A stretch of DNA of 64,000 nt from a virus (taxonomy: Duplodnaviria > Caudoviricetes): positions 1-64,000 of the IMG/VR virus record IMGVR_UViG_3300037423_000611, one strand, 5' to 3'. The translations under genes and the position numbers were made by a program. Numbering within the stretch: the first letter of the stretch is position 1; each line of letters opens with the position of its first letter. The notes beneath the pieces are model-generated. The model was not told the DNA's origin, did not search any database, and was given only the letters and a program-made list of their open reading frames with translations. Below are positions 1 through 22,784 of this stretch, one piece after another.

Positions 1-958
1 TAAATGGCACTGTAGAAGTAATTGTTGCAGAAGTGAAAGCATCAAAATATCTTTCGGTTACTTCACCACCTTCGACTGTAAGTGTGATTCCATTTACGGT
101 GTATGTTAATGCGCTACTTCCATCATTACTTACAACTAGGCCGTAAACATTACCTGAAAAGTTGCGAGTCATATTAGAAGAACCTGAAAACACGTCTTTT
201 ACAGAGTAGTCTGGAGTAGATGAGCCGGATTTTAATGTATATACGTTAGCATCAAATGTACTTGTAGCATTGATGGTTATTGTCGTGAATGGGTCAAATA
301 CATCTTCAAATTCTTCGGTTGATTTTACAGTTATGGCGATACTATTAATTGTAAATGTTAAATCTGAGTTTCCTGTGTTATGGATATAAAATTTATTCAT
401 GTTACTTGAAAAGTTGCGTGTTCCTGAAGTAGTCCAGCCATCTTTAATAATAAATTTTGCTTCGGATGCGCCTGAAGTACTCCCACTTGAAATAGGAGAA
501 CCATTAAATAATAAATTTGCTCCATTATCTGATAGTTTATCTAGGGTTGATTTATTAGTATGAGTGTGCGAAGAAGACTGTAAAGAAGTGATATTATTGT
601 TTATAGGTGTTAATTTAGACTCAATTTTAGATGCAGAATAAGTTGTACCAGTGCTTGAAGCATTCGAGTCGTTTATTTCATTATTTATTAAATCTTGAAT
701 TTTGATTGCGGATAGAGTTGAAGATGACGTGTTAGTATTAGTGTCATCAATTGCTATACTAGCCGAACCTGCTGCTGCAAACAAAGCCCAATATGTTGCG
801 TTAGTTGGGTCTATTCCTATACATCCTTGTATACAGATATAAGATGCACCTGAGTATGTTACAACTTCGTTTACACGGTAAGATTTTGTATTGTCATAGG
901 CTCCTTTGTAGCCCGACATGCCTCTACCTCCGCCACCTGATGGGAAAAATCCAGACAT
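1..958 (-). CDS. Virion/fibre-associated protein, partial (runs off the left edge); N-terminal CBM5/12-like motif and two ~70-aa beta-rich repeats
   Basis: Not in the ORF track; translated by hand from ATG 958 after SD AGGAGG: MSGFFPSGGGGRGMSGYKGAYDNTKSYRVNEVVTYSGASYICI...; open to position 1. Confidence 0.75.
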   Translation of the reverse strand, partial: MSGFFPSGGGGRGMSGYKGAYDNTKSYRVNEVVTYSGASYICIQGCIGIDPTNATYWALFAAAGSASIAIDDTNTNTSSSTLSAIKIQDLINNEINDSNASSTGTTYSASKIESKLTPINNNITSLQSSSHTHTNKSTLDKLSDNGANLLFNGSPISSGSTSGASEAKFIIKDGWTTSGTRNFSSNMNKFYIHNTGNSDLTFTINSIAITVKSTEEFEDVFDPFTTITINATSTFDANVYTLKSGSSTPDYSVKDVFSGSSNMTRNFSGNVYGLVVSNDGSSALTYTVNGITLTVEGGEVTERYFDAFTSATITSTVPF

Positions 959-1414: not shown

Positions 1415-1879
1415 TTATTCTTTTAAATTTTTTAGATACTCATATAAAGTATTGGGCGTATGCCTTCCGACTTCGCTACTAGGTATCTTTCCAACCATAG
1501 CAAGCAAAGTCTCTGTCATTTCACTGCATACATATCTAGATTTATCATCTACCCAAGGTAAATCTATTCCGAATGTTCGATAGAAAAATAACCAAACTAA
1601 TTTCTTGACATCATAATAGTCGCCTTTAAGTTGATCCATATAAACCAACATATTATTGCGTTGTATATCTGTTAAATTTAAATCTATGACCACATAGTCG
1701 TCATAATGGAATGGATTTAGTCTAGCGGAATAATTGTAGTTAATTTCAAATATCATATTTGGTTCCACAAAGACTCCAACGTGACTGAAGTGGCCGTGAT
1801 CTAAGAATTGTATGAGATGGGAGATAAGAGTTTTTCTACGACAAAATACAATGTCCCCTGTTCTCATATTTATCACCAA
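1415..1879 (-). CDS. Permuted papain-like amidase (YaeF/YiiX, C92-like)
   Basis: GDIVF...SHVG (His first) ... YD ... YVCSE (Cys later) is the permuted NlpC/P60 order. Confidence 0.75.
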   Translation of the reverse strand: MVINMRTGDIVFCRRKTLISHLIQFLDHGHFSHVGVFVEPNMIFEINYNYSARLNPFHYDDYVVIDLNLTDIQRNNMLVYMDQLKGDYYDVKKLVWLFFYRTFGIDLPWVDDKSRYVCSEMTETLLAMVGKIPSSEVGRHTPNTLYEYLKNLKE

Positions 1880-2430
1880 ACAATACTATCTATCGTATCA
1901 ATTCCGCTGCCATTAACTTCTGCTTCCTTCTGCTTAAACTTCATGTACAAATCTACTTCATGACTTTGAAACTCTTTCGTGAGTGTCAGGAAATCCGCAC
2001 GTTGTATATAAAACTTACCGTGAGAATCACTGCCGATAATAGATTCAGTTTGATTCGCATCCAACGCGAATGTAAGACCAATCGATCGGTAATTATCCCT
2101 GTCTTTCGCTGTGTACGAGAATACGATATTCGCATTATCCGCACCGACTAGAGAGGAAATCACTTGACCGTTTAACTCCGCTTGATATGCGTTGTATAAC
2201 TCCGCTAACTTAGTAGATTGTAAATCCGCTAATACTGGCGCTTTACCTTCCACCCATACGCCATTAATCGAATCCCATTTAGGAAGGTGAAACCCTTCCG
2301 GTACTTCCAAGGTCACTAAATCGCTAGGAAGTGGATTCTCGTCTGAATATCGGTTTAGTTCGTCAATGTCCATGAGCACAGGTTCAACGTATAGCCCGTT
2401 TTCGTCTACTCTACTAATTTGTACTAGCAT
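1873..2430 (-). CDS. Tail fibre assembly/chaperone-like protein
   Basis: PEGFHLPKWD...WVEG motif and position directly after the fibre gene. Confidence 0.55.
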   Translation of the reverse strand: MLVQISRVDENGLYVEPVLMDIDELNRYSDENPLPSDLVTLEVPEGFHLPKWDSINGVWVEGKAPVLADLQSTKLAELYNAYQAELNGQVISSLVGADNANIVFSYTAKDRDNYRSIGLTFALDANQTESIIGSDSHGKFYIQRADFLTLTKEFQSHEVDLYMKFKQKEAEVNGSGIDTIDSIVW

Positions 2431-2443
2431 TTATATTCACCCC

Positions 2444-3730
2444 CTATTGTTCTGCTCGGAACGGCGTAACGTCCAAAGAAAGAAAAACATTTGCCACATT
2501 CTCACGACAAACAACTTTTCCATCCGGATAAACGCCAATTGCACAACCTTTATAATTGCTATCGTTCGAAGATGTTGACAAATATATTTTTGTTTTAGGT
2601 CTGTACCCTGCTGGCAATGTAAATATAACTGTTTCTACAGCAACGGTTCCGTTCTTTATGAATCCGGTTAAATGAACATTTCCAAATTCATCTTTATGAT
2701 ATCCAGCACTATTCCAATCTGTCGCATAATTCACCCACCCATTCAACAACGTAGGCGCAATCCACGGCATCTGATTCTTTCTAGCCCTCGTATTCTCCAC
2801 GACACTTTGTCTCGTTGCCAAGTCTGCAATCGCCTGCGTATTCGCTTGTACGCTGGTTTGGATATTCTGATTGTATTCTACGTCCATTTGGACTACGTTG
2901 CTAGTGATAGAATACTTGTCTAGCATGGTGTAGTCTGCTGTGTAGACTGCGGTTGGGTCGAAGTTTTCCTTTTTTGTATAAGCATTTGACGAACCGTAAG
3001 AGAAAGAACTCGTTTCCACTGACCACGACTTATCTTCAATTCCATTTTTATAAACTTTTATTATCTTGTTCGCTCTGTTTTTCAATTTAGAACCAGCAGG
3101 ATAATATGATCCGCTAACATTGATACCATAAATCAAACCGTCTGAACTTATACACGGCGTTACCTGTTCCCTCACCACAATCCCTGTATCAACGCTTACC
3201 TGATTTCCACCCGTTGCAAGTGATAATTGCCCCTCAACGGTGATTTCTTCGGTTGTAGGTGTTGCTAGTTGATATGTTAGTGAATATGGTTTGAACGCTC
3301 CGCTAGTATCATAAGTCCAGCCGCTTGAAGTTGGTAACGTTGTTGTCGATGTTGTGTTAGTGGGGAATAATTTCACTTTCGGAATTTCAGCCCACGCTTT
3401 CGTTCCTGTTCCATTATAAACTGACGTTCCTATCTGTTCCCCTGCTGTAACCATCTTCCAACCGTTAAAATACGCTTGAATCTCTGCTGCTGTCGGTGTG
3501 TAGGATTCGCCCCAACCGCTGTCAGTGTCGGAAATGGTTATTGCTGTATACCCATTGGATGGGTCTAACCAAACAATATCGGCAGAATCAAAAGCAGATA
3601 TATAATTTTTTAGTATTTTTCCATCATATTTCGTAGCAACATAATAATTTCCTCTTAACATATTCGATGAAGAAATATGAACTTCTTTATAAGCCACATA
3701 ATCCATACCAAAAACCCAATTCTGAGCCAT
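2444..3730 (-). CDS. Tail fibre protein, C-terminal piece
   Basis: ATG 3730 after SD AAGGAGGT; C-terminal WIAPTLLNGW...GNVHLTG...IFTLPAGYRP fibre-tip motif. Confidence 0.75.
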   Translation of the reverse strand: MAQNWVFGMDYVAYKEVHISSSNMLRGNYYVATKYDGKILKNYISAFDSADIVWLDPSNGYTAITISDTDSGWGESYTPTAAEIQAYFNGWKMVTAGEQIGTSVYNGTGTKAWAEIPKVKLFPTNTTSTTTLPTSSGWTYDTSGAFKPYSLTYQLATPTTEEITVEGQLSLATGGNQVSVDTGIVVREQVTPCISSDGLIYGINVSGSYYPAGSKLKNRANKIIKVYKNGIEDKSWSVETSSFSYGSSNAYTKKENFDPTAVYTADYTMLDKYSITSNVVQMDVEYNQNIQTSVQANTQAIADLATRQSVVENTRARKNQMPWIAPTLLNGWVNYATDWNSAGYHKDEFGNVHLTGFIKNGTVAVETVIFTLPAGYRPKTKIYLSTSSNDSNYKGCAIGVYPDGKVVCRENVANVFLSLDVTPFRAEQ

Positions 3731-3731
3731 A

Positions 3732-4886
3732 TTAAGCAACCTCCTTCTCTATTTCTCTGTAAATCTCTTTATCCCAAAATAGGAGAGTAATTTCGGGATA
3801 AAGAACTTCCATTAAAGCAAGTTTGCGTAAGTCCTTTTCACGAACCCACCCTTTAACTTCAATAATGTAGTCTAGTTCTCCACTTTCTTTGAAAATAAAA
3901 AAATCTGGAACGTAATAAAACTCGCCCAGATTAAATGATTGGATTTCGTAATCCCATATTAAATTTTGTTCATCTAAATATTGTGCAACCGTAACTTCCC
4001 AACCTGATCTAAATTTATACTGCTTACCACTTTTACTTAGATACGTTGGGTAGTTATGGTGATAACCGCTTTGATGATTACCTTTTTCAATAGTTAAAGC
4101 CATTACTTCACTTTGACTTCTAAATTCCACATTATTTCTTTCTAAGTGATGTCTAATATTTGCATATGTACATCCTATTTCCTCTGCAATTTCGGTCAAA
4201 TGTTTCTTTTGATTAACGTACATATCTATGATTTTATTAATGTCAATATTATATTTTACAGACCCATTTTTAGGTTGAATGTTATGTCTTTGAAGGAACG
4301 CACTCATAACAGACCAATCAATTTTATATTTATCTGATAAAACAGCAACATTCGTCCCACTTTCCGCATCTTGGATGATTCGTTGCTGAATATCCTCAGT
4401 GATAATTTTTTCTAACTTTTGTTTCTTTTTCTCTAACTTTAACTCATCGACAACTCTTAGATATTTCCACTTCGTTAAATTGTATTTATCTAAAAGTTCA
4501 TCAATCTGATACTCGTCAGATAAATAATCTTCGGTGAATGATTCAATATCAATATCTGTGACCTTGAACACTTGGTCTTTAGTTTTAAAGGAATGACCAA
4601 TTCTTTTTAAATAATTTCTGATTACAACATCAGAAGTGTTGTAATCTCTTGCAATTTGCACAAAGGGAACATTGGCTTTGTATTTAATTTCAATATCTTC
4701 AAGTTGTTGCACGGTTAATAAGTCTTCTAATTTACTATTTGTTTTCTTAGGTAGATTTAACTCCTTTACAAGTTTGTCATATTTCCATTTAGAAATATTA
4801 TACTTGGTTTGCAAATCCTTTGAAGATAGATTCGGATAATCTACTAAAAATAGATCGACATTAATACCATAAATGGGGTGAATCAT
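3732..4886 (-). CDS. Free-standing PD-(D/E)XK endonuclease with repeated HTH-like N-terminal modules
   Basis: C-terminal FRSGWE...WDYE...YVPDFF...IIEVKGW; abuts or overlaps both neighbouring ORFs. Confidence 0.75.
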   Translation of the reverse strand: MIHPIYGINVDLFLVDYPNLSSKDLQTKYNISKWKYDKLVKELNLPKKTNSKLEDLLTVQQLEDIEIKYKANVPFVQIARDYNTSDVVIRNYLKRIGHSFKTKDQVFKVTDIDIESFTEDYLSDEYQIDELLDKYNLTKWKYLRVVDELKLEKKKQKLEKIITEDIQQRIIQDAESGTNVAVLSDKYKIDWSVMSAFLQRHNIQPKNGSVKYNIDINKIIDMYVNQKKHLTEIAEEIGCTYANIRHHLERNNVEFRSQSEVMALTIEKGNHQSGYHHNYPTYLSKSGKQYKFRSGWEVTVAQYLDEQNLIWDYEIQSFNLGEFYYVPDFFIFKESGELDYIIEVKGWVREKDLRKLALMEVLYPEITLLFWDKEIYREIEKEVA

Positions 4887-6742
4887 AAGACCACCCCTGT
4901 AGCAAATCTATGTTCAATAAAATATTTTCCGTCTTGAGTATAAAGAACGTCCCTGACTGAACCATCCATATTGGATGCAAGCGTTACAGGTGTAACTCCG
5001 TCTGATAATGAAACCCCCATTAGCACGTCAATGTTTTGTGGTTCGAATGCGGTTGCGCTTGAACCGATTTCTAGTTGTGGGTTGGTGAAGGTGAATGTTC
5101 CTGATGAATTTGTATTATTAGATAGTAGAACTCTAACCTCAATGGCATTTGTTGGTGCTGTTACTGTTGTTGATACATTTCCATTTCCGTTTAACCATCC
5201 TGTAGTACTTAATTGTGTCCCGTTAACATCATGGAATGTAATACCATAATAACCTACTATATTTGCAGAAAACGTGTATTGACTTCCAGCTATAACTTTA
5301 GTTCCATTGATTTGTGAAGTTTGTGCCGCTGCCGTAGCATTCAACGTCAAACTATACGGTCCTGTCATAACCGCATTCGCATGTAATGTCCACTGGCTGA
5401 AATCCGGTAACAGGTTTTTACCTGTCTTCGTAATAATCGGCTGTTGGATGTGTTCGATTGAATCGACATACGGGAATTTATCCGCTAGTTTGTCGCCTGT
5501 GTATTCTGCATCACTGTCAATCTTTGAATACGTGGTGGAGTCGATTTCGTATAGACGAACACCATCAACGTTAAATGTGGTTACTGACGTACCACCTAAC
5601 GCCCCGGCATACAAACGCAAGCTATTTTTTCCAGTAAATTTAACATATAGCACCTGCCAAGAATTAAGTAAGGCACCATTTGCTGTTTTTTCAACCGGGT
5701 TTGTTGCCGCCCCTCCATCTGTTGCTTTTAATGAAATACCTCCACTGGTATAACTTGAAATATTGATTTCCGCTATAGCTATATAATACTTTGTGGCATC
5801 CAATGGTATATTATCTTTCCAAGTGTATGCACCACCATTGTTATTGGCTGTTCCTTTGATGGATTTTGAACCATACTTATAAACCGTTGAATCTATTGTG
5901 GCATTTGTTGCTGTCCATTTTGAAATGTCCTCACAATTCCCATCCCGCCCCAACAAATTCACCAACGTACGCCCATACAATCCAACGATTCGAACTAAGC
6001 TTGATTGATCTGCGCTTATGATCTGTGTACCATGCTTTAAAGTACTAATGACTTTTGGTACTGCAATAATTTTGTTCTCCATACTATCTAAACGTGCTTT
6101 TAATGTTGCATTTGTAACACCCGTAACACTTGGTCTACTATCAACAATTTCTTGGTTAGATGAACCGGAATATGAAACGATATTGTCAATACGGTCATTA
6201 AGTTTATCTAATCCACCTTTAACTTCTGTTACCCCTGTTACTTTACCTGAATAGGTGATATTTTGGGCTGGATGTGCCTGTGTGGAATTAGCGTGATTTG
6301 TATCACTGTTAATTCTGCTTTGGGTTTCAGATGTTATTTGGGATTGTAGAGAATTTGCTTTATTCATTATTTCCGCAGTAAAATCTTCTACATTGGTTGA
6401 TGTATATAAATTAGATGAATCGTTAAGATATATTCTTGAACTCGGATATTGGATAATTCCTCTACCCATGTAATTGGCAACAACAGTTTTTGCTTCTTCA
6501 GAAGAATTGAATGTGATACTTCCCACTTGATAATTTACAATGAATTGATTTGATGTTGGTAATCCACTTGCAATCTCGTAATATCCTGAAATGGAAACTT
6601 TGTTGAAAGGGTCAGGAACTTCCTCAAGTATTATTGTTGAATTTACAATCTTTTTAGTATCACTTCTACTAATATACGGTTCATTTGCATCACCCTTACG
6701 CCATGCAATTAGAACTGTGTCATTATTGTTAAAAACTGACAT
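4883..6742 (-). CDS. Baseplate/tail fibre protein, N-terminal piece with carbohydrate-binding-like domains
   Basis: 619 aa, NLLGRDGNCED and GKNLLPDF motifs typical of Bacillota phage fibre proteins; position after tail spike. Confidence 0.7.
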   Translation of the reverse strand: MSVFNNNDTVLIAWRKGDANEPYISRSDTKKIVNSTIILEEVPDPFNKVSISGYYEIASGLPTSNQFIVNYQVGSITFNSSEEAKTVVANYMGRGIIQYPSSRIYLNDSSNLYTSTNVEDFTAEIMNKANSLQSQITSETQSRINSDTNHANSTQAHPAQNITYSGKVTGVTEVKGGLDKLNDRIDNIVSYSGSSNQEIVDSRPSVTGVTNATLKARLDSMENKIIAVPKVISTLKHGTQIISADQSSLVRIVGLYGRTLVNLLGRDGNCEDISKWTATNATIDSTVYKYGSKSIKGTANNNGGAYTWKDNIPLDATKYYIAIAEINISSYTSGGISLKATDGGAATNPVEKTANGALLNSWQVLYVKFTGKNSLRLYAGALGGTSVTTFNVDGVRLYEIDSTTYSKIDSDAEYTGDKLADKFPYVDSIEHIQQPIITKTGKNLLPDFSQWTLHANAVMTGPYSLTLNATAAAQTSQINGTKVIAGSQYTFSANIVGYYGITFHDVNGTQLSTTGWLNGNGNVSTTVTAPTNAIEVRVLLSNNTNSSGTFTFTNPQLEIGSSATAFEPQNIDVLMGVSLSDGVTPVTLASNMDGSVRDVLYTQDGKYFIEHRFATGVVL

Positions 6743-6757
6743 AGATCAAACCTCCTT

Positions 6758-7516
6758 TTAAAATGAAAAAGAGGCGTGATTTTCATCAGCCTCCATGTAT
6801 TCTAAAATATTTAATTTTAAAAGTTCTTCACTTAATATTTTTTCAATATTTTTTAATTCCCAGTATGAAACCCTTATCAAATAAATACTATTATTTTCGC
6901 AATATGTATTTTTGATTTCGTCATTCTTTTTTCTTCTTTCAAGTGCCTCTTCACTACCATGTCTTCTTGATGGTTTGTAATGTAGTTCTCCGTCATACTC
7001 GATTAAACATAATAAATTATCTTCGTCATCCATTATTGCGAAATCAAAAGGTAATGGGGATTTGTTTTTACAATCTTTAAATCTATATTGTTGAATATAT
7101 TTAATTGAATTATTTCCCAACCATTTTCTTATCTTTTGTTCTCCTTTAGACTCTTGACAATGTGAGCATCTTACTTCATGATCTTTAAAATGATTAAACC
7201 TGACTTTAAAAATATGACCATCTGGGCATTCCATAATCAATTTTGTTCTGTTATTTTTATAGGTGTCACTCAATAATTTGTAGCCAACACCTTCAATAAA
7301 CAACTTAACATCTTCATATTCTAATTTCTTAGTAGGAGAACATTTTCCACATCTCTTTCCTTGCTTAAAAGAAGTAAAACTTGCTACATAACAATGACCA
7401 ACCGGACAAATTGATTCTAATTTTTGTTTGTTACTTTTATATTTATTTGATGTTAATTTGTATCCTTCATTTTCAAAATAAGATTTCACATAATCGTAGG
7501 TGTGTTTTTTACTCAT
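6758..7516 (-). CDS. Zn-ribbon-repeat Vsr/EDxHD-like endonuclease (putative homing endonuclease)
   Basis: Repeated CPxGH...RCxxC units; SKGE, PLPFDF, IEYDGELH motifs. Confidence 0.8.
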   Translation of the reverse strand: MSKKHTYDYVKSYFENEGYKLTSNKYKSNKQKLESICPVGHCYVASFTSFKQGKRCGKCSPTKKLEYEDVKLFIEGVGYKLLSDTYKNNRTKLIMECPDGHIFKVRFNHFKDHEVRCSHCQESKGEQKIRKWLGNNSIKYIQQYRFKDCKNKSPLPFDFAIMDDEDNLLCLIEYDGELHYKPSRRHGSEEALERRKKNDEIKNTYCENNSIYLIRVSYWELKNIEKILSEELLKLNILEYMEADENHASFSF

Positions 7517-7543: not shown

Positions 7544-7644
7544 AAATAAAAAAGAGAGGTTGAATTACCTCTCTCATTCTCACTCATACTCGTTTATCAT
7601 CTTGTTTTCTCACTCAACTCTTCCAATAAAACCCATCTTTTATC
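7544..7644 (-). repeat. Intergenic ~100-bp repeat, copy 2, ending in a terminator
   Basis: Aligns with 1293-1393; GAGAGAGGT-AATTCA-ACCTCTCT plus T-tract. Confidence 0.7.
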
Positions 7645-21107: not shown

Positions 21108-22784
21108 TTATTTAATCGTGGATAATTTACTTTTTAAACCTTCTAGGTCATTTTTAAGATCGCTTGGATAAACTGCGACAAATTTGTAACTAGGTAATTC
21201 TGAAAAATAATCTATTTTTCTTTTAGTCTTTTCTCTATAACCCTTAAATGTTTCATTTTCACTCTTCTCATTATACCAACCAAAATATTCTACAATAATG
21301 TTATTGTTAATAATCCAATCTGGAACATAATTCTCATTTGTTTTAATATTAAACCATTTATTTTTTTCTAAAACATTATTATAAAAATATTTCACATTTT
21401 TAAATTCTTTTTTAAGAAATTGATGGATTAAAACTTCATCTCTGGAATCAAATCGTTCTCCATCTTCTGAGTAAACCTTATTTATAAAATCTTGATGGTT
21501 AAATGTATTTGAATAAGCAAATGAGAATAAGAATCCTATATCATTAAATTTAACGGTTAAAGTTCCTAATCTATATTCATTTAATAATTTGTTGACCGGA
21601 AGTTTTGCAATATCTTTTACAGAAGAAACCAATTTATCGTCAATAACTTTATTAATAAACCAATCAATTGCAATTCTAACGTTATTGCCTTCATTCCAAT
21701 ACCCAGAAGGGACTTGTTGAAATTCCCAAGGCATCCACTTATGCGGATATAAAAAATTAAAAGATTGATAGGGAGATAAATTAAAACAATTCGCTAAAAA
21801 AGAGAAAAGCCCATATTCCTTAAATAAATTCTGTGAAACTATTTTAGGAATATCTTCTATAGAACATATTTTCCTATCTTCTATTAATTTACTCACTAAC
21901 CATTCCATTATTTCTTTTTTATTTTCATCACTTTTATAAAAGTTTTTGGGTACAGTTTTTAACTGCCATTCTTTATATTTAAAAGGGAATAAATAATTAA
22001 TAATATTATAGTTAGAAGAATTAAAGAACTTAAGATAAATTGAGTATAGATTATATTCTTCCATAATATTTTTGAAATTTAATTTCAGGAAGTCTTTATC
22101 ATCAGAAACTATACCCGATATATACAATTTGTTCTTGAGCCAGTTCATCGCCATTTCGATATTTTCTTCATTAGACCAATAATTGCTAGGAACTCTGCTT
22201 TTATTAAATTCCCAAGGTTTAAAATATCCATCAAAAGCTATTTCCAGTATATTGTAAATACCATAATTGTCAGTTAATGTTACTAGTTTATATTTTATAA
22301 ATAAATCCTTGTTGATAACATTTAATATGTCTTCACGTTTATTAATAATTCCATCATCTTTTAATTTATCAACGAAGCAAAATACTAACCCTTTTATATC
22401 TTCACTACTTAAATCATTGAAAAACTTATCAGGAAAACCTTTTAAATCTGAATTTAATACTTTTTTATAAATCAGAACTTTTTCCTCAGTGCTTTTCAAA
22501 CTCATAATTTCTTCTTTTTTATTTGAAATGCATTTAATACAACAGTCTTTATGAGTTGGATCTAAATTTTGGGTTGTGTAATTTCTAAAATCTTTATAAT
22601 ATTTTTCCTTACAATAATCACATGACACAAGCACATCTACTAGTGTTCCTTTAGATAAATCTTTTACATTGACTTCAAATGTGTCTCCCATCTTTGTAAA
22701 CGGATAACCTATAGAAACATAATATTCTTTGTTTTTACTATGCCAATTCACATTAACCTTCTGTGGTAATATCAACATTACCAA
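21108..22784 (-). CDS. Large putative endonuclease: N-terminal Zn ribbon, central W-containing repeats, C-terminal PD-(D/E)XK-like domain
   Basis: CDYC...CCIKC; repeated (K/M)PW(E/Q)..VP..YW units; FDSRDE...YVPDWII...IVEYFG. Confidence 0.7.
   Translation of the reverse strand: MVMLILPQKVNVNWHSKNKEYYVSIGYPFTKMGDTFEVNVKDLSKGTLVDVLVSCDYCKEKYYKDFRNYTTQNLDPTHKDCCIKCISNKKEEIMSLKSTEEKVLIYKKVLNSDLKGFPDKFFNDLSSEDIKGLVFCFVDKLKDDGIINKREDILNVINKDLFIKYKLVTLTDNYGIYNILEIAFDGYFKPWEFNKSRVPSNYWSNEENIEMAMNWLKNKLYISGIVSDDKDFLKLNFKNIMEEYNLYSIYLKFFNSSNYNIINYLFPFKYKEWQLKTVPKNFYKSDENKKEIMEWLVSKLIEDRKICSIEDIPKIVSQNLFKEYGLFSFLANCFNLSPYQSFNFLYPHKWMPWEFQQVPSGYWNEGNNVRIAIDWFINKVIDDKLVSSVKDIAKLPVNKLLNEYRLGTLTVKFNDIGFLFSFAYSNTFNHQDFINKVYSEDGERFDSRDEVLIHQFLKKEFKNVKYFYNNVLEKNKWFNIKTNENYVPDWIINNNIIVEYFGWYNEKSENETFKGYREKTKRKIDYFSELPSYKFVAVYPSDLKNDLEGLKSKLSTIK

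What the first reader, a model, noticed from the sequence alone, without database searches (positions are those of the whole stretch)
2444..6742. Tail-fibre gene apparently split in two by an intronless endonuclease insertion (gene-in-pieces)
Seen: ORF 6742-4883 ends ...IEHRFATGVVL* and overlaps the nuclease start (TTATGA). The nuclease ends AAGGAGGTTGCTTAAT, which supplies the SD for ORF 3730-2444 starting MAQNWVF. The junctions share a degenerate duplication (GGTGGTCTTA / GGTTGCTTA), and there is no room for intron structure. Inference: the ancestral protein read ...VVL-DGS-QNW...; the new ATG looks derived from GAT-GGC codons. Knowledge: homing endonuclease splitting of a gene into functional pieces is described for nrdA of phage Aeh1. 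I do not know of it being described for a structural fibre protein.
Basis: partly seen in the sequence, partly recalled or inferred. Interest (0 to 1): 0.7.

Follow-up and report, generated by a model that had tools for sequence, protein, structure and literature searches.

The report
Nuclease gene splits phage tail-fibre gene
In this uncultured phage a selfish DNA-cutting-enzyme gene sits exactly inside a conserved motif of the receptor-binding tail-fibre gene, so a protein that is one piece in about 170 inspected relatives is encoded here as two intact pieces with no sign of splicing; this is a rare, testable second kind of "gene in pieces".

Summary
On the minus strand lie three abutting ORFs:
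- fibre N-half, 6742-4883, 619 aa
- nuclease, 4886-3732, 384 aa
- fibre C-half, 3730-2444, 428 aa

The N-half stop overlaps the nuclease start (ATGA). The last nuclease codons supply AAGGAGG 9 nt before the C-half ATG.

Both halves match one family (phrog_13022) collinearly. In 22 viral, about 85 bacterial and 60 metagenomic homologue copies the frame is open across the junction, and none carries an insert. Placed end to end, the two halves have the same residue count as 73 of 92 homologues.

The break lies between L and D of a conserved LDGS motif. In a confident model of a fused homologue this is a tight turn between two strands.

The C-half start, tATGGCTCA, is a vestige of GAT-GGC-TCA (Asp-Gly-Ser) read one base off.

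No intron matched in Rfam, and there are no intein halves.

The nuclease keeps all four catalytic residues of T7 endonuclease I behind helix-turn-helix modules. It has no close relative anywhere.

Still untested: homing, and whether the two halves assemble.

Verdict: a real nuclease-caused gene in pieces, and a new member of the kind known from Aeh1 nrdA/mobE. The scan noted a similar case on other DNA (e1-5784654).

The parts
4883..6742 (-). Fibre N-half (619 aa + TGA). It comprises an N-terminal anchor part (phrog_11315), two CBM-like jelly-roll domains, and the first strands of the module that holds the junction.
   Evidence: ORF and translation. phrog_13022 positions 25-502 and phrog_11315. 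Collinear with fused homologues. Keeps 47 of 49 family-conserved columns.
4883..4886 (-). ATGA overlap: the nuclease start ATG (4886-4884) and the N-half stop TGA (4885-4883). This is the layout of translational coupling.
   Evidence: Sequence.
3732..4886 (-). Free-standing nuclease gene (384 aa). Residues 1-255 are helical helix-turn-helix modules with an internal repeat. Residues about 285-384 form a T7 endonuclease I-like PD-(D/E)XK domain.
   Evidence: Pfam Phage_endo_I E 3.9e-4, below the curated cut-off, plus HTH hits. PHROG 9019, 190 and 945 at about 1e-10. Internal repeat E 4e-4. Atlas neighbours are viral HTH + endonuclease I/DUF1064/NUMOD3 proteins.
3852..3998 (-). Codons of the predicted catalytic residues: E297 (3998-3996), D328 (3905-3903), E343 (3860-3858), K345 (3854-3852).
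   Evidence: Invariant columns FRSGxE, PDF and ExKG in the alignment with T7 gene 3 and four phage endonucleases I. Pairwise BLASTP with T7 endonuclease I, E 5e-6. Residue numbers checked.
3740..3746 (-). Shine-Dalgarno AAGGAGG for the C-half. It lies inside the last nuclease codons, 9 nt before the ATG.
   Evidence: Sequence. The N-half has the same AAGGAGGTT before its own ATG.
3723..3731 (-). tATGGCTCA: vestige of the ancestral GAT-GGC-TCA (Asp-Gly-Ser) codons. It is now read one base off as ATG-GCT-CA(G), the start of the C-half. Four rather than six bases follow before the conserved TGG.
   Evidence: Homologues have GATGG in 58 of 71 copies and GATGGCTC in 5 of 71 at the aligned spot. Window sequence.
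2444..3730 (-). Fibre C-half (428 aa + stop). It comprises the rest of the junction module, beta domains, a long helix, and a receptor-binding head domain.
   Evidence: Translation. phrog_13022 positions 511-900. Over 99% of it aligns to the C-terminal part of proteins of 800-1300 aa. Keeps 74 of 80 conserved columns. The head of the fused homologue resembles Listeria phage PSA gp15 (Z 14.4, rmsd 2.2, 102 aligned).

Best explanation
A free-standing, homing-endonuclease-like gene was inserted between the Leu and Asp codons of the conserved LDGS motif of a one-piece receptor-binding tail-fibre gene. It encodes helix-turn-helix DNA-binding modules plus a T7 endonuclease I-type PD-(D/E)XK nuclease with an intact active site.

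Shown:
- The gene is one piece in every relative inspected.
- The 1155-nt insert is nuclease ORF from end to end.
- Its first bases (TGA) end the N-half and overlap the nuclease start.
- Its last codons carry the ribosome site for the C-half.
- The C-half starts at the cryptic ATG hidden in the old GAT-GGC codons, brought into frame by a 2-nt shortening before the conserved Trp codon.
- Both halves keep the family's conserved residues as well as intact homologues do.

Inferred:
- The RNA is not spliced. The fibre is made as two polypeptides from the late operon, with the nuclease translated by coupling to the N-half.
- The halves reassemble without a covalent link. The break is a tight turn between two strands of a well-ordered region, so the N-half's last strands would complete the fold of the C-half, which carries the receptor-binding head (about 0.55 likely).
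- The nuclease cuts uninterrupted LDGS-coding alleles in co-infecting relatives and spreads by repair.
For: - One family spans both halves. phrog_13022 positions 25-502 match the N-half and 511-900 the C-half. Paenibacillus phage Pd_22F has a 939-aa protein covering both.
- The frame is open across the junction in 22 of 22 viral loci, in all informative copies of 79 bacterial loci, and in 60 metagenomic copies. None holds a relative of the nuclease.
- Of 92 homologues aligned to within 12 residues of the junction, 73 have exactly the residue count of the two halves placed end to end, and 11 have one more.
- The junction lies inside the LDGS motif. The motif's Gly is at least 90% conserved and is Ala here.
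- The DNA vestige tATGGCTCA is present.
- No Rfam match at E <= 1 over 2300-7000.
- The nuclease active site is conserved.
- Conserved columns kept: 47 of 49 in the N-half and 74 of 80 in the C-half.
- The fused homologue model has pLDDT 83.7 and pTM 0.76. The junction falls between strands 516-529 and 536-541, where pLDDT is 94-95.
- No intact second copy exists in the 72.5-kb record.
Against: - No close relative of the phage or of the nuclease was found. The nuclease is alone among 5.8 billion protein clusters, and the nearest fibre relative is a 258-aa fragment at 77% identity. There is therefore no presence/absence polymorphism, no evidence of mobility and no dN/dS.
- Intact halves are also what a recent, still undecayed, inactivating insertion would leave.
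- Unlike Aeh1 NrdA, there are no insertion-derived tails to hold the pieces together.
- That the junction lies inside one domain is read from secondary structure and pLDDT only. I had no coordinates or contact map.
- The Pfam score for Phage_endo_I (20.5) is below the curated cut-off (29.1).
- The record is a metagenomic contig about 45% complete, so another fibre gene may lie off the record.
Confidence: 0.78

Rival explanations
1. Dead fibre gene. The insertion is recent and simply inactivated the gene. The two ORFs look intact only because too little time has passed, and the phage relies on other receptor-binding proteins.
For: No relative is close enough to date the event. Other fibre-like genes sit nearby, such as ORF 2-958 with a tail-fibre PHROG and a CBM_5_12 hit. 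The record is about 45% complete.
Against: The C-half has a strong, correctly spaced ribosome site. Its start codon came into frame only through a 2-nt change after the insertion, which suggests selection for making the C-half. Neither half has a stop or a loss of conserved residues. No second copy exists in the record.
Confidence: 0.15
2. Self-splicing intron, of a type not in Rfam or with its core overlapping the ORF, carrying the nuclease gene. The mRNA is ligated and a single fibre protein is made.
For: Phage nuclease genes often reside in group I introns. The last 290 nt of the insert region fold better than shuffles (z -3.7), with a 15-bp hairpin at 3766-3804.
Against: No Rfam match at E <= 1. 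All but 1 of the 1155 nt is ORF. By my own inspection of the sequence read, splice sites obeying the U/G rule of group I introns would delete 3-6 conserved residues, whereas plain end-to-end joining fits the homologue residue count. The stop, ribosome site and in-frame ATG would serve no purpose in an intron. The 5' end of the insert folds unremarkably (z -1.8).
Confidence: 0.04
3. Ancestral two-gene fibre. The family has a natural gene boundary here, and the nuclease merely entered an intergenic spacer.
For: A few short database proteins begin at or near the motif: P0220 'MLDGS...', P0129 'VLDGS...'.
Against: P0220 is found at 99.8% identity in L127. There its 'M' is a GTG Val codon in a frame that stays open upstream to the contig end. 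P0129 comes from a 1.5-kb contig and P0126 from a 960-bp contig. All roughly 167 inspected copies are fused. The break cuts a conserved motif rather than a variable linker.
Confidence: 0.02
4. Assembly chimera. The metagenomic contig wrongly joins a nuclease gene into a fibre gene.
For: The record is a metagenome-derived viral contig.
Against: The nuclease protein is recorded on two contigs. Both junctions are exact: an overlapping ATGA, and a ribosome site plus start built from vestigial fibre codons. A misjoin would not produce this. The nuclease GC (0.309) fits the phage backbone (0.334).
Confidence: 0.01

Closest known systems
Aeromonas phage Aeh1 nrdA split by the free-standing HNH endonuclease gene mobE (Friedrich et al. 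2007, cited in PMC10448857; Crona et al. 2010, PMC3045599)
   Same: A free-standing endonuclease gene inserted in a conserved part of an otherwise one-piece gene. There is no intron or intein, and the two ORFs have their own stop and start signals. The expected outcome is function restored by non-covalent assembly.
   Different: - The host gene here is a virion receptor-binding fibre, not an enzyme.
- The nuclease is a T7 endonuclease I-type PD-(D/E)XK enzyme with helix-turn-helix modules, not HNH.
- In Aeh1 the pieces carry insertion-derived tails that are essential for activity (PMC3045599). Here the pieces abut seamlessly with no extra residues.
- Function and mobility are shown for Aeh1 and untested here.
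Fractured genes: split inteins with a free-standing endonuclease gene between the halves (Dassa et al. 2009, PMC2677866)
   Same: A nuclease gene lies between the two halves of a gene that is contiguous elsewhere.
   Different: There are no intein halves. The C-terminus of the N-half and the N-terminus of the C-half align residue for residue with uninterrupted homologues, so no protein splicing is possible.
Intron-borne or freely inserted nuclease genes that interrupt phage lysis and packaging genes (Staphylococcus phages K, Twort and Sb-1, as summarised in PMC13729910), and the fragmented gene calls handled by Rephine.r (PMC8351571)
   Same: A phage gene is called as fragments around a nuclease gene. 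The field recognises this as a recurrent annotation problem.
   Different: Most of those cases are spliced at the RNA level or are of unknown viability. My phrase searches of the held library found no paper describing a split tail-fibre gene, which is a weak negative.
T7 endonuclease I (gene 3), a Holliday-junction resolvase
   Same: The catalytic core FRSGxE...PDF...ExKG is conserved: E20/D55/E65/K67 of T7 correspond to E297/D328/E343/K345 here.
   Different: T7 gene 3 is a 149-aa structure-specific resolvase with no DNA-binding extension. Here the domain follows about 255 residues of helix-turn-helix modules, the layout of sequence-targeted homing enzymes. The gene sits inside a fibre gene, not in a replication module.

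Membership tests
Gene in pieces caused by a free-standing endonuclease gene (Aeh1 nrdA/mobE type) | The host gene is one continuous ORF in relatives that lack the insert | tested here: met
   22 viral, about 85 bacterial and 60 metagenomic copies are open across the junction. 210 of 228 proteins match both halves collinearly.
Gene in pieces caused by a free-standing endonuclease gene (Aeh1 nrdA/mobE type) | The insert is an endonuclease ORF with no intron or intein around it | tested here: met
   The ORF fills 1154 of 1155 nt. No Rfam match. It is in a different frame from the fibre, and the junction carries no extra residues.
Gene in pieces caused by a free-standing endonuclease gene (Aeh1 nrdA/mobE type) | Both pieces are intact ORFs with their own stop and start signals | tested here: met
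   TGA at 4885-4883. AAGGAGG lies 9 nt before the ATG at 3730. Conserved columns are retained.
Gene in pieces caused by a free-standing endonuclease gene (Aeh1 nrdA/mobE type) | The pieces assemble into a functional protein | not testable with these tools
   Needs virion proteomics or co-purification. No multimer fold tool was available.
Homing endonuclease gene (mobile) | Presence/absence among close relatives, and cleavage of the empty allele | not testable with these tools
   No relative of the nuclease in 5.8 billion clusters or in any fetched locus. No close relative of the phage.
T7 endonuclease I family (Pfam PF05367, PD-(D/E)XK) | Profile match above the curated threshold | tested here: inconclusive
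   20.5 bits against a cut-off of 29.1, E 3.9e-4. PHROG endonuclease/resolvase families match at about 1e-10. Pairwise BLASTP with T7 gene 3 gives E 5e-6.
T7 endonuclease I family (Pfam PF05367, PD-(D/E)XK) | Catalytic Glu, Asp, Glu and Lys (T7 E20, D55, E65, K67; the catalytic roles are from my recollection of the T7 literature) | tested here: met
   Invariant columns in the six-sequence alignment: E297, D328, E343, K345.
Group I/II intron-encoded endonuclease | A conserved intron RNA core flanking or enclosing the ORF | tested here: not met
   Rfam permissive scan of 2300-7000 on both strands gave no match at E <= 1. Only 1 non-coding base.
Fractured gene with split intein | Intein N- and C-halves at the ends of the two pieces | tested here: not met
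   The ends align residue for residue with uninterrupted homologues. 73 of 92 have an identical residue count.
phrog_13022 fibre family (Bacillota phage and prophage receptor-binding fibres) | A collinear match of the whole profile | tested here: met
   N-half E 1.9e-66 (profile 25-502) and C-half E 1.3e-95 (profile 511-900).

The most novel reading that the evidence does not exclude
The nuclease gene is a specialised gene-splitting cassette. It brings a stop codon, translational coupling for itself and a ribosome site for the downstream piece, and it targets the DNA that encodes the conserved LDGS turn shared by a very large family of Bacillota phage fibres.

By turning a one-piece receptor-binding protein into an anchor half and a separately encoded, non-covalently docked receptor-binding half, and by promoting repair-driven co-conversion of flanking fibre DNA, it would make the host-range-determining half an exchangeable module.

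The distal fibre DNA is compositionally foreign to this phage: GC 0.40 against 0.334.
Probability: 0.15. Interest if true: 0.7.

Novelty: new member of a known kind. Interest (0 to 1): 0.48.

Why it matters
Splitting of a gene into working pieces by a free-standing endonuclease is still cited as known from 'at least one instance', Aeh1 nrdA (PMC10448857).

This would be a second, structurally different case. The host is a virion receptor-binding protein, cut in a tight beta turn, with no added docking tails. The start codon was recruited from out-of-frame ancestral codons.

If the halves assemble, three things follow:
- Structural proteins can tolerate this kind of parasitism.
- Nature has marked a split site that could be useful for modular engineering of phage receptor-binding proteins in laboratory phage-host systems.
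- Annotators are warned that such fragments are one functional gene.

It also adds an uncharacterised nuclease architecture (helix-turn-helix array plus endonuclease I core) to the candidate homing enzymes.

Tried and rejected
The contigs of the nearest fragment P0126 (77% identity, 960-bp contig) and of P0129 could therefore not be read.
- Scans for P0220 in viral contigs and genomes and for P0129 in metagenomes found nothing. P0220 was later resolved through L127 as a GTG codon inside an open frame, so it is not a second split.
- Megablast of the region against GenBank phages: no match.
- Exact 35-nt junction pattern in viral contigs: none.
- Nuclease against PDB sequences, whole protein and domain alone: nothing significant.
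- Single-sequence AlphaFold of the nuclease: pLDDT 43, unusable, so no fold search was run.
- Word-index searches for nuclease relatives, full length and domain: only the protein itself.
- The second nuclease gene upstream (6758-7516) is unrelated to this one.
- The junction 'duplication' was rejected as evidence (3% of random pairs).
- GC content does not mark the nuclease as foreign. The distal fibre is the outlier instead.
- Literature phrase searches for split or interrupted tail fibres returned nothing. Two searches failed on term length. Friedrich 2007 is not held in the library.
- I could not obtain coordinates of the model, so whether the strands on both sides of the junction share one sheet is not shown.


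Full report
**What is there**

On the minus strand three ORFs abut:
- 6742-4883, 619 aa, P0001
- 4886-3732, 384 aa, P0002
- 3730-2444, 428 aa, P0003

The TGA of P0001 overlaps the ATG of P0002 (ATGA). P0002 ends ...GAGAAGGAGGTTGCTTAA, then one T, then the ATG of P0003. The GGAGG is 9 nt from that ATG. The alternative TTG at 3739 abuts the ribosome site and cannot be the start.

The stretch 4885-3731 is 1155 nt (385 codons), so the two outer ORFs are in one frame.

The window is the first 64 kb of a 72.5-kb IMG/VR virus contig estimated 45% complete. Upstream lie a tape-measure gene, a Dit gene and a 1720-aa tail protein. This is a long non-contractile-tail type late operon.

**The outer ORFs are two halves of one gene**

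- PHROG family 13022 (933 positions) matches P0001 at profile 25-502 (E 1.9e-66) and P0003 at 511-900 (E 1.3e-95).
- The 939-aa protein of Paenibacillus phage Pd_22F covers P0001 209-594 with its residues 113-507, and P0003 27-428 with 557-939.
- An exhaustive profile-free search with P0003 found 9181 relatives. Among the best 150, nearly all are proteins of 650-2000 aa in which P0003 residue about 4 aligns to an internal position.
- Of 228 fetched proteins, 210 match both halves collinearly. Of the 92 whose alignments reach within 12 residues of the junction, 73 have exactly as many residues there as the two window halves placed end to end, and 11 have one more.

**Survey of the junction at DNA level**

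- In 22 of 22 viral-contig or GenBank phage loci, one frame runs through the junction with 414-784 codons upstream.
- The same holds for the copies in 79 loci of Paenibacillus, Cohnella, Aneurinibacillus, Bacillus and related genomes. The exceptions are one copy at a contig end and one or two with an unrelated frameshift further upstream.
- It also holds for 60 metagenomic copies; four more are cut by contig ends.
- None of these loci has an insert at this point, and none encodes a relative of P0002.
- The few short database proteins that seemed to start at the junction do not stand up. P0126 and P0129 come from contigs of 960 and 1534 bp. P0220 ('MLDGS...') is found at 99.8% identity in L127, where its first codon is GTG (Val) in a frame that stays open, with family-like residues, up to the contig end.

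The window is therefore the only split copy I could find.

**Where the break lies**

- Homologues read ...(R/K)(F/W)xx-x-V-L-D-G-S-L-x-W... and the window reads ...HRFATGVVL* / MAQNWVF.... LDGS occurs in 48 of 71 copies. Its Gly is at least 90% conserved (G531 of P0011) and is Ala in the window.
- The block is conserved on both sides of the break, even in distant SPO1-type Bacillus phage fibres whose other parts differ.
- An AlphaFold model of the best two-sided homologue (P0011, 948 aa, 112-row alignment) is confident (mean pLDDT 83.7, pTM 0.76). It places the junction (residues about 530-535) in a short turn between strands 516-529 and 536-541, inside a stretch with pLDDT 94-95. The real linkers dip to 52-74.
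- Structure comparison gives two CBM16/CBM4/CBM22-like jelly rolls at 186-327 and about 350-480 (Z 14.9, rmsd 2.1, 129 aligned). The C-terminal head at 843-948 resembles the receptor-binding protein gp15 of Listeria phage PSA (Z 14.4, rmsd 2.2, 102 aligned).
- So the N-half carries the anchor and two sugar-binding-type modules. The C-half carries the neck helix and the receptor-binding head.
- I infer that the cut runs through a folded module rather than a linker. I had no coordinates, so this is not shown.

**A fossil of the event**

At the aligned spot homologues have GAT-GGN-(TCN/AGY): GATGG in 58 of 71 copies and GATGGCTC in 5. The window has T-ATG-GCT-CAG-AAT-TGG. The bases ATGGCTCA of an ancestral GAT-GGC-TCA are still there but are read one base off, so the cryptic ATG inside Asp-Gly now starts the C-half.

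Four bases instead of six precede the conserved Trp codon, which restores the frame. By my rough estimate, a second and third codon that spell Gly-Ser in the neighbouring frame would arise by chance about 1 time in 200.

Using an out-of-frame ATG needed a second, compensating change after the insertion. That points to selection for making the C-half.

Both halves also keep the family's conserved columns (47 of 49 and 74 of 80). Intact homologues average 90% and 91%.

**Not an intron, intein or artefact**

- A permissive Rfam scan of 2300-7000 found nothing at E <= 1.
- The insert has one non-coding base.
- By my own inspection of the sequence read, group I-type splice sites that obey the U/G rule would remove conserved residues, whereas plain end-to-end joining fits the homologues.
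- The 5' part of the insert folds unremarkably (z -1.8). The 3' part folds better than shuffles (z -3.7) because of a 15-bp hairpin at 3766-3804, which I did not explain.
- The nuclease is in another frame and the junction holds no extra residues, so there is no intein or split intein.
- The nuclease protein is on record from two contigs.

**The nuclease**

- Residues 1-255 are helical, with helix-turn-helix hits and an internal repeat (KYN[IL][ST]KWKY, E 4e-4).
- Residues about 285-384 match phage endonuclease/resolvase PHROGs at about 1e-10 and Pfam Phage_endo_I below threshold.
- Aligned with T7 gene 3 and four phage endonucleases I, the columns FRSGxE, PDF and ExKG are invariant. This gives E297, D328, E343 and K345 for T7 E20, D55, E65 and K67.
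- ESM Atlas neighbours are viral proteins of 200-360 aa that combine HTH or NUMOD3 modules with endonuclease I, DUF1064 or DUF559 cores. That is the architecture of free-standing homing enzymes.
- It has no detectable relative at full length or domain level in the 5.8-billion-cluster set, none in GenBank phages beyond the core motif, and no second copy in the record.
- Homing is therefore inferred from architecture and position only.

**Context**

- A second, unrelated nuclease gene (6758-7516; DUF2726, homing-endonuclease PHROGs) lies directly before the fibre gene.
- A third candidate is at 21108-22784.
- Earlier notes of this scan describe further nuclease genes with leader RNAs at 22.8-43.3 kb and call the phage SPbeta-like. 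I did not test either claim.
- The nuclease has backbone composition (GC 0.309 against a window value of 0.334). The fibre from about 6140 down to 1873 is the outlier (0.40-0.42), while the first 600 nt of the N-half are backbone-like (0.335). This suggests an imported distal fibre module.

**Comparison with what is known**

The nearest precedent is Aeh1 nrdA split by mobE. There, tails created by the insertion are essential for assembly (PMC3045599). Here there are no tails.

A 2023 paper still cites that case as 'at least one instance' (PMC10448857). Fragmented phage genes around nuclease genes are recognised as an annotation problem (PMC8351571; PMC13729910). I found no paper on a split tail fibre.

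This scan noted a similar layout on other DNA, a NUMOD3/PD-(D/E)XK nuclease splitting a tail-module gene (e1-5784654). In that case the cassette carries a spare copy of the target residues, which is not so here.

**Verdict**

This is a real nuclease-caused gene in pieces in a receptor-binding fibre: a new member of a known kind, of moderate interest. Function of the halves and mobility of the nuclease remain open.

Noticed in passing
window 6758-7516 (-), with hairpin 7552-7575: A second, unrelated nuclease gene of 252 aa lies 15 nt upstream of the fibre N-half. It matches Pfam DUF2726 and the CapR domain, and PHROG 559/9084 'HNH/homing endonuclease'. A terminator-like hairpin and its own ribosome site precede it. 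The fibre gene is thus both preceded and split by selfish-looking nuclease genes.
   Followed up: partly
window 1873-6140 versus the rest: Composition is mosaic. The distal fibre (N-half from about residue 200, the C-half, and the downstream ORF 1873-2430) has GC 0.40-0.42 against 0.334 for the window. The first 600 nt of the N-half (0.335) and the nuclease (0.309) look like backbone. This suggests that the receptor-binding part of the fibre was imported from a higher-GC phage.
   Followed up: partly
window 3766-3804 (-): A 15-bp, 93% complementary inverted repeat with a 9-nt loop (loop UACUCUCCU on the RNA) lies inside the last 75 nt of the nuclease gene, 19 nt before the C-half ribosome site. 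The 291-nt stretch 3690-3980 folds with z -3.7. Its role is unknown; it may affect mRNA stability or processing, or act as a brake on C-half translation.
   Followed up: no
window 21108-22784 (-): A 558-aa ORF whose first 100 residues match a homing-endonuclease PHROG (12131, E 1.2e-13). It sits between the tape-measure region and upstream genes.
   Followed up: no
L043, L077, L098 (Paenibacillus tyrfis, P. oleatilyticus, P. elgii); L083-L089 (P. melissococcoides): Prophage regions carry two or three tandem paralogues of this fibre gene, each with the N- and C-parts fused. P. melissococcoides has at least seven copies, several at contig ends.
   Followed up: no
window 2-958 (-) and 1415-1879 (-): Downstream of the fibre lie two ORFs. 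One is open-ended, with a tail-fibre PHROG and a CBM_5_12 hit. The other is 154 aa and matches a PHROG labelled enoyl-CoA hydratase-like.
   Followed up: no
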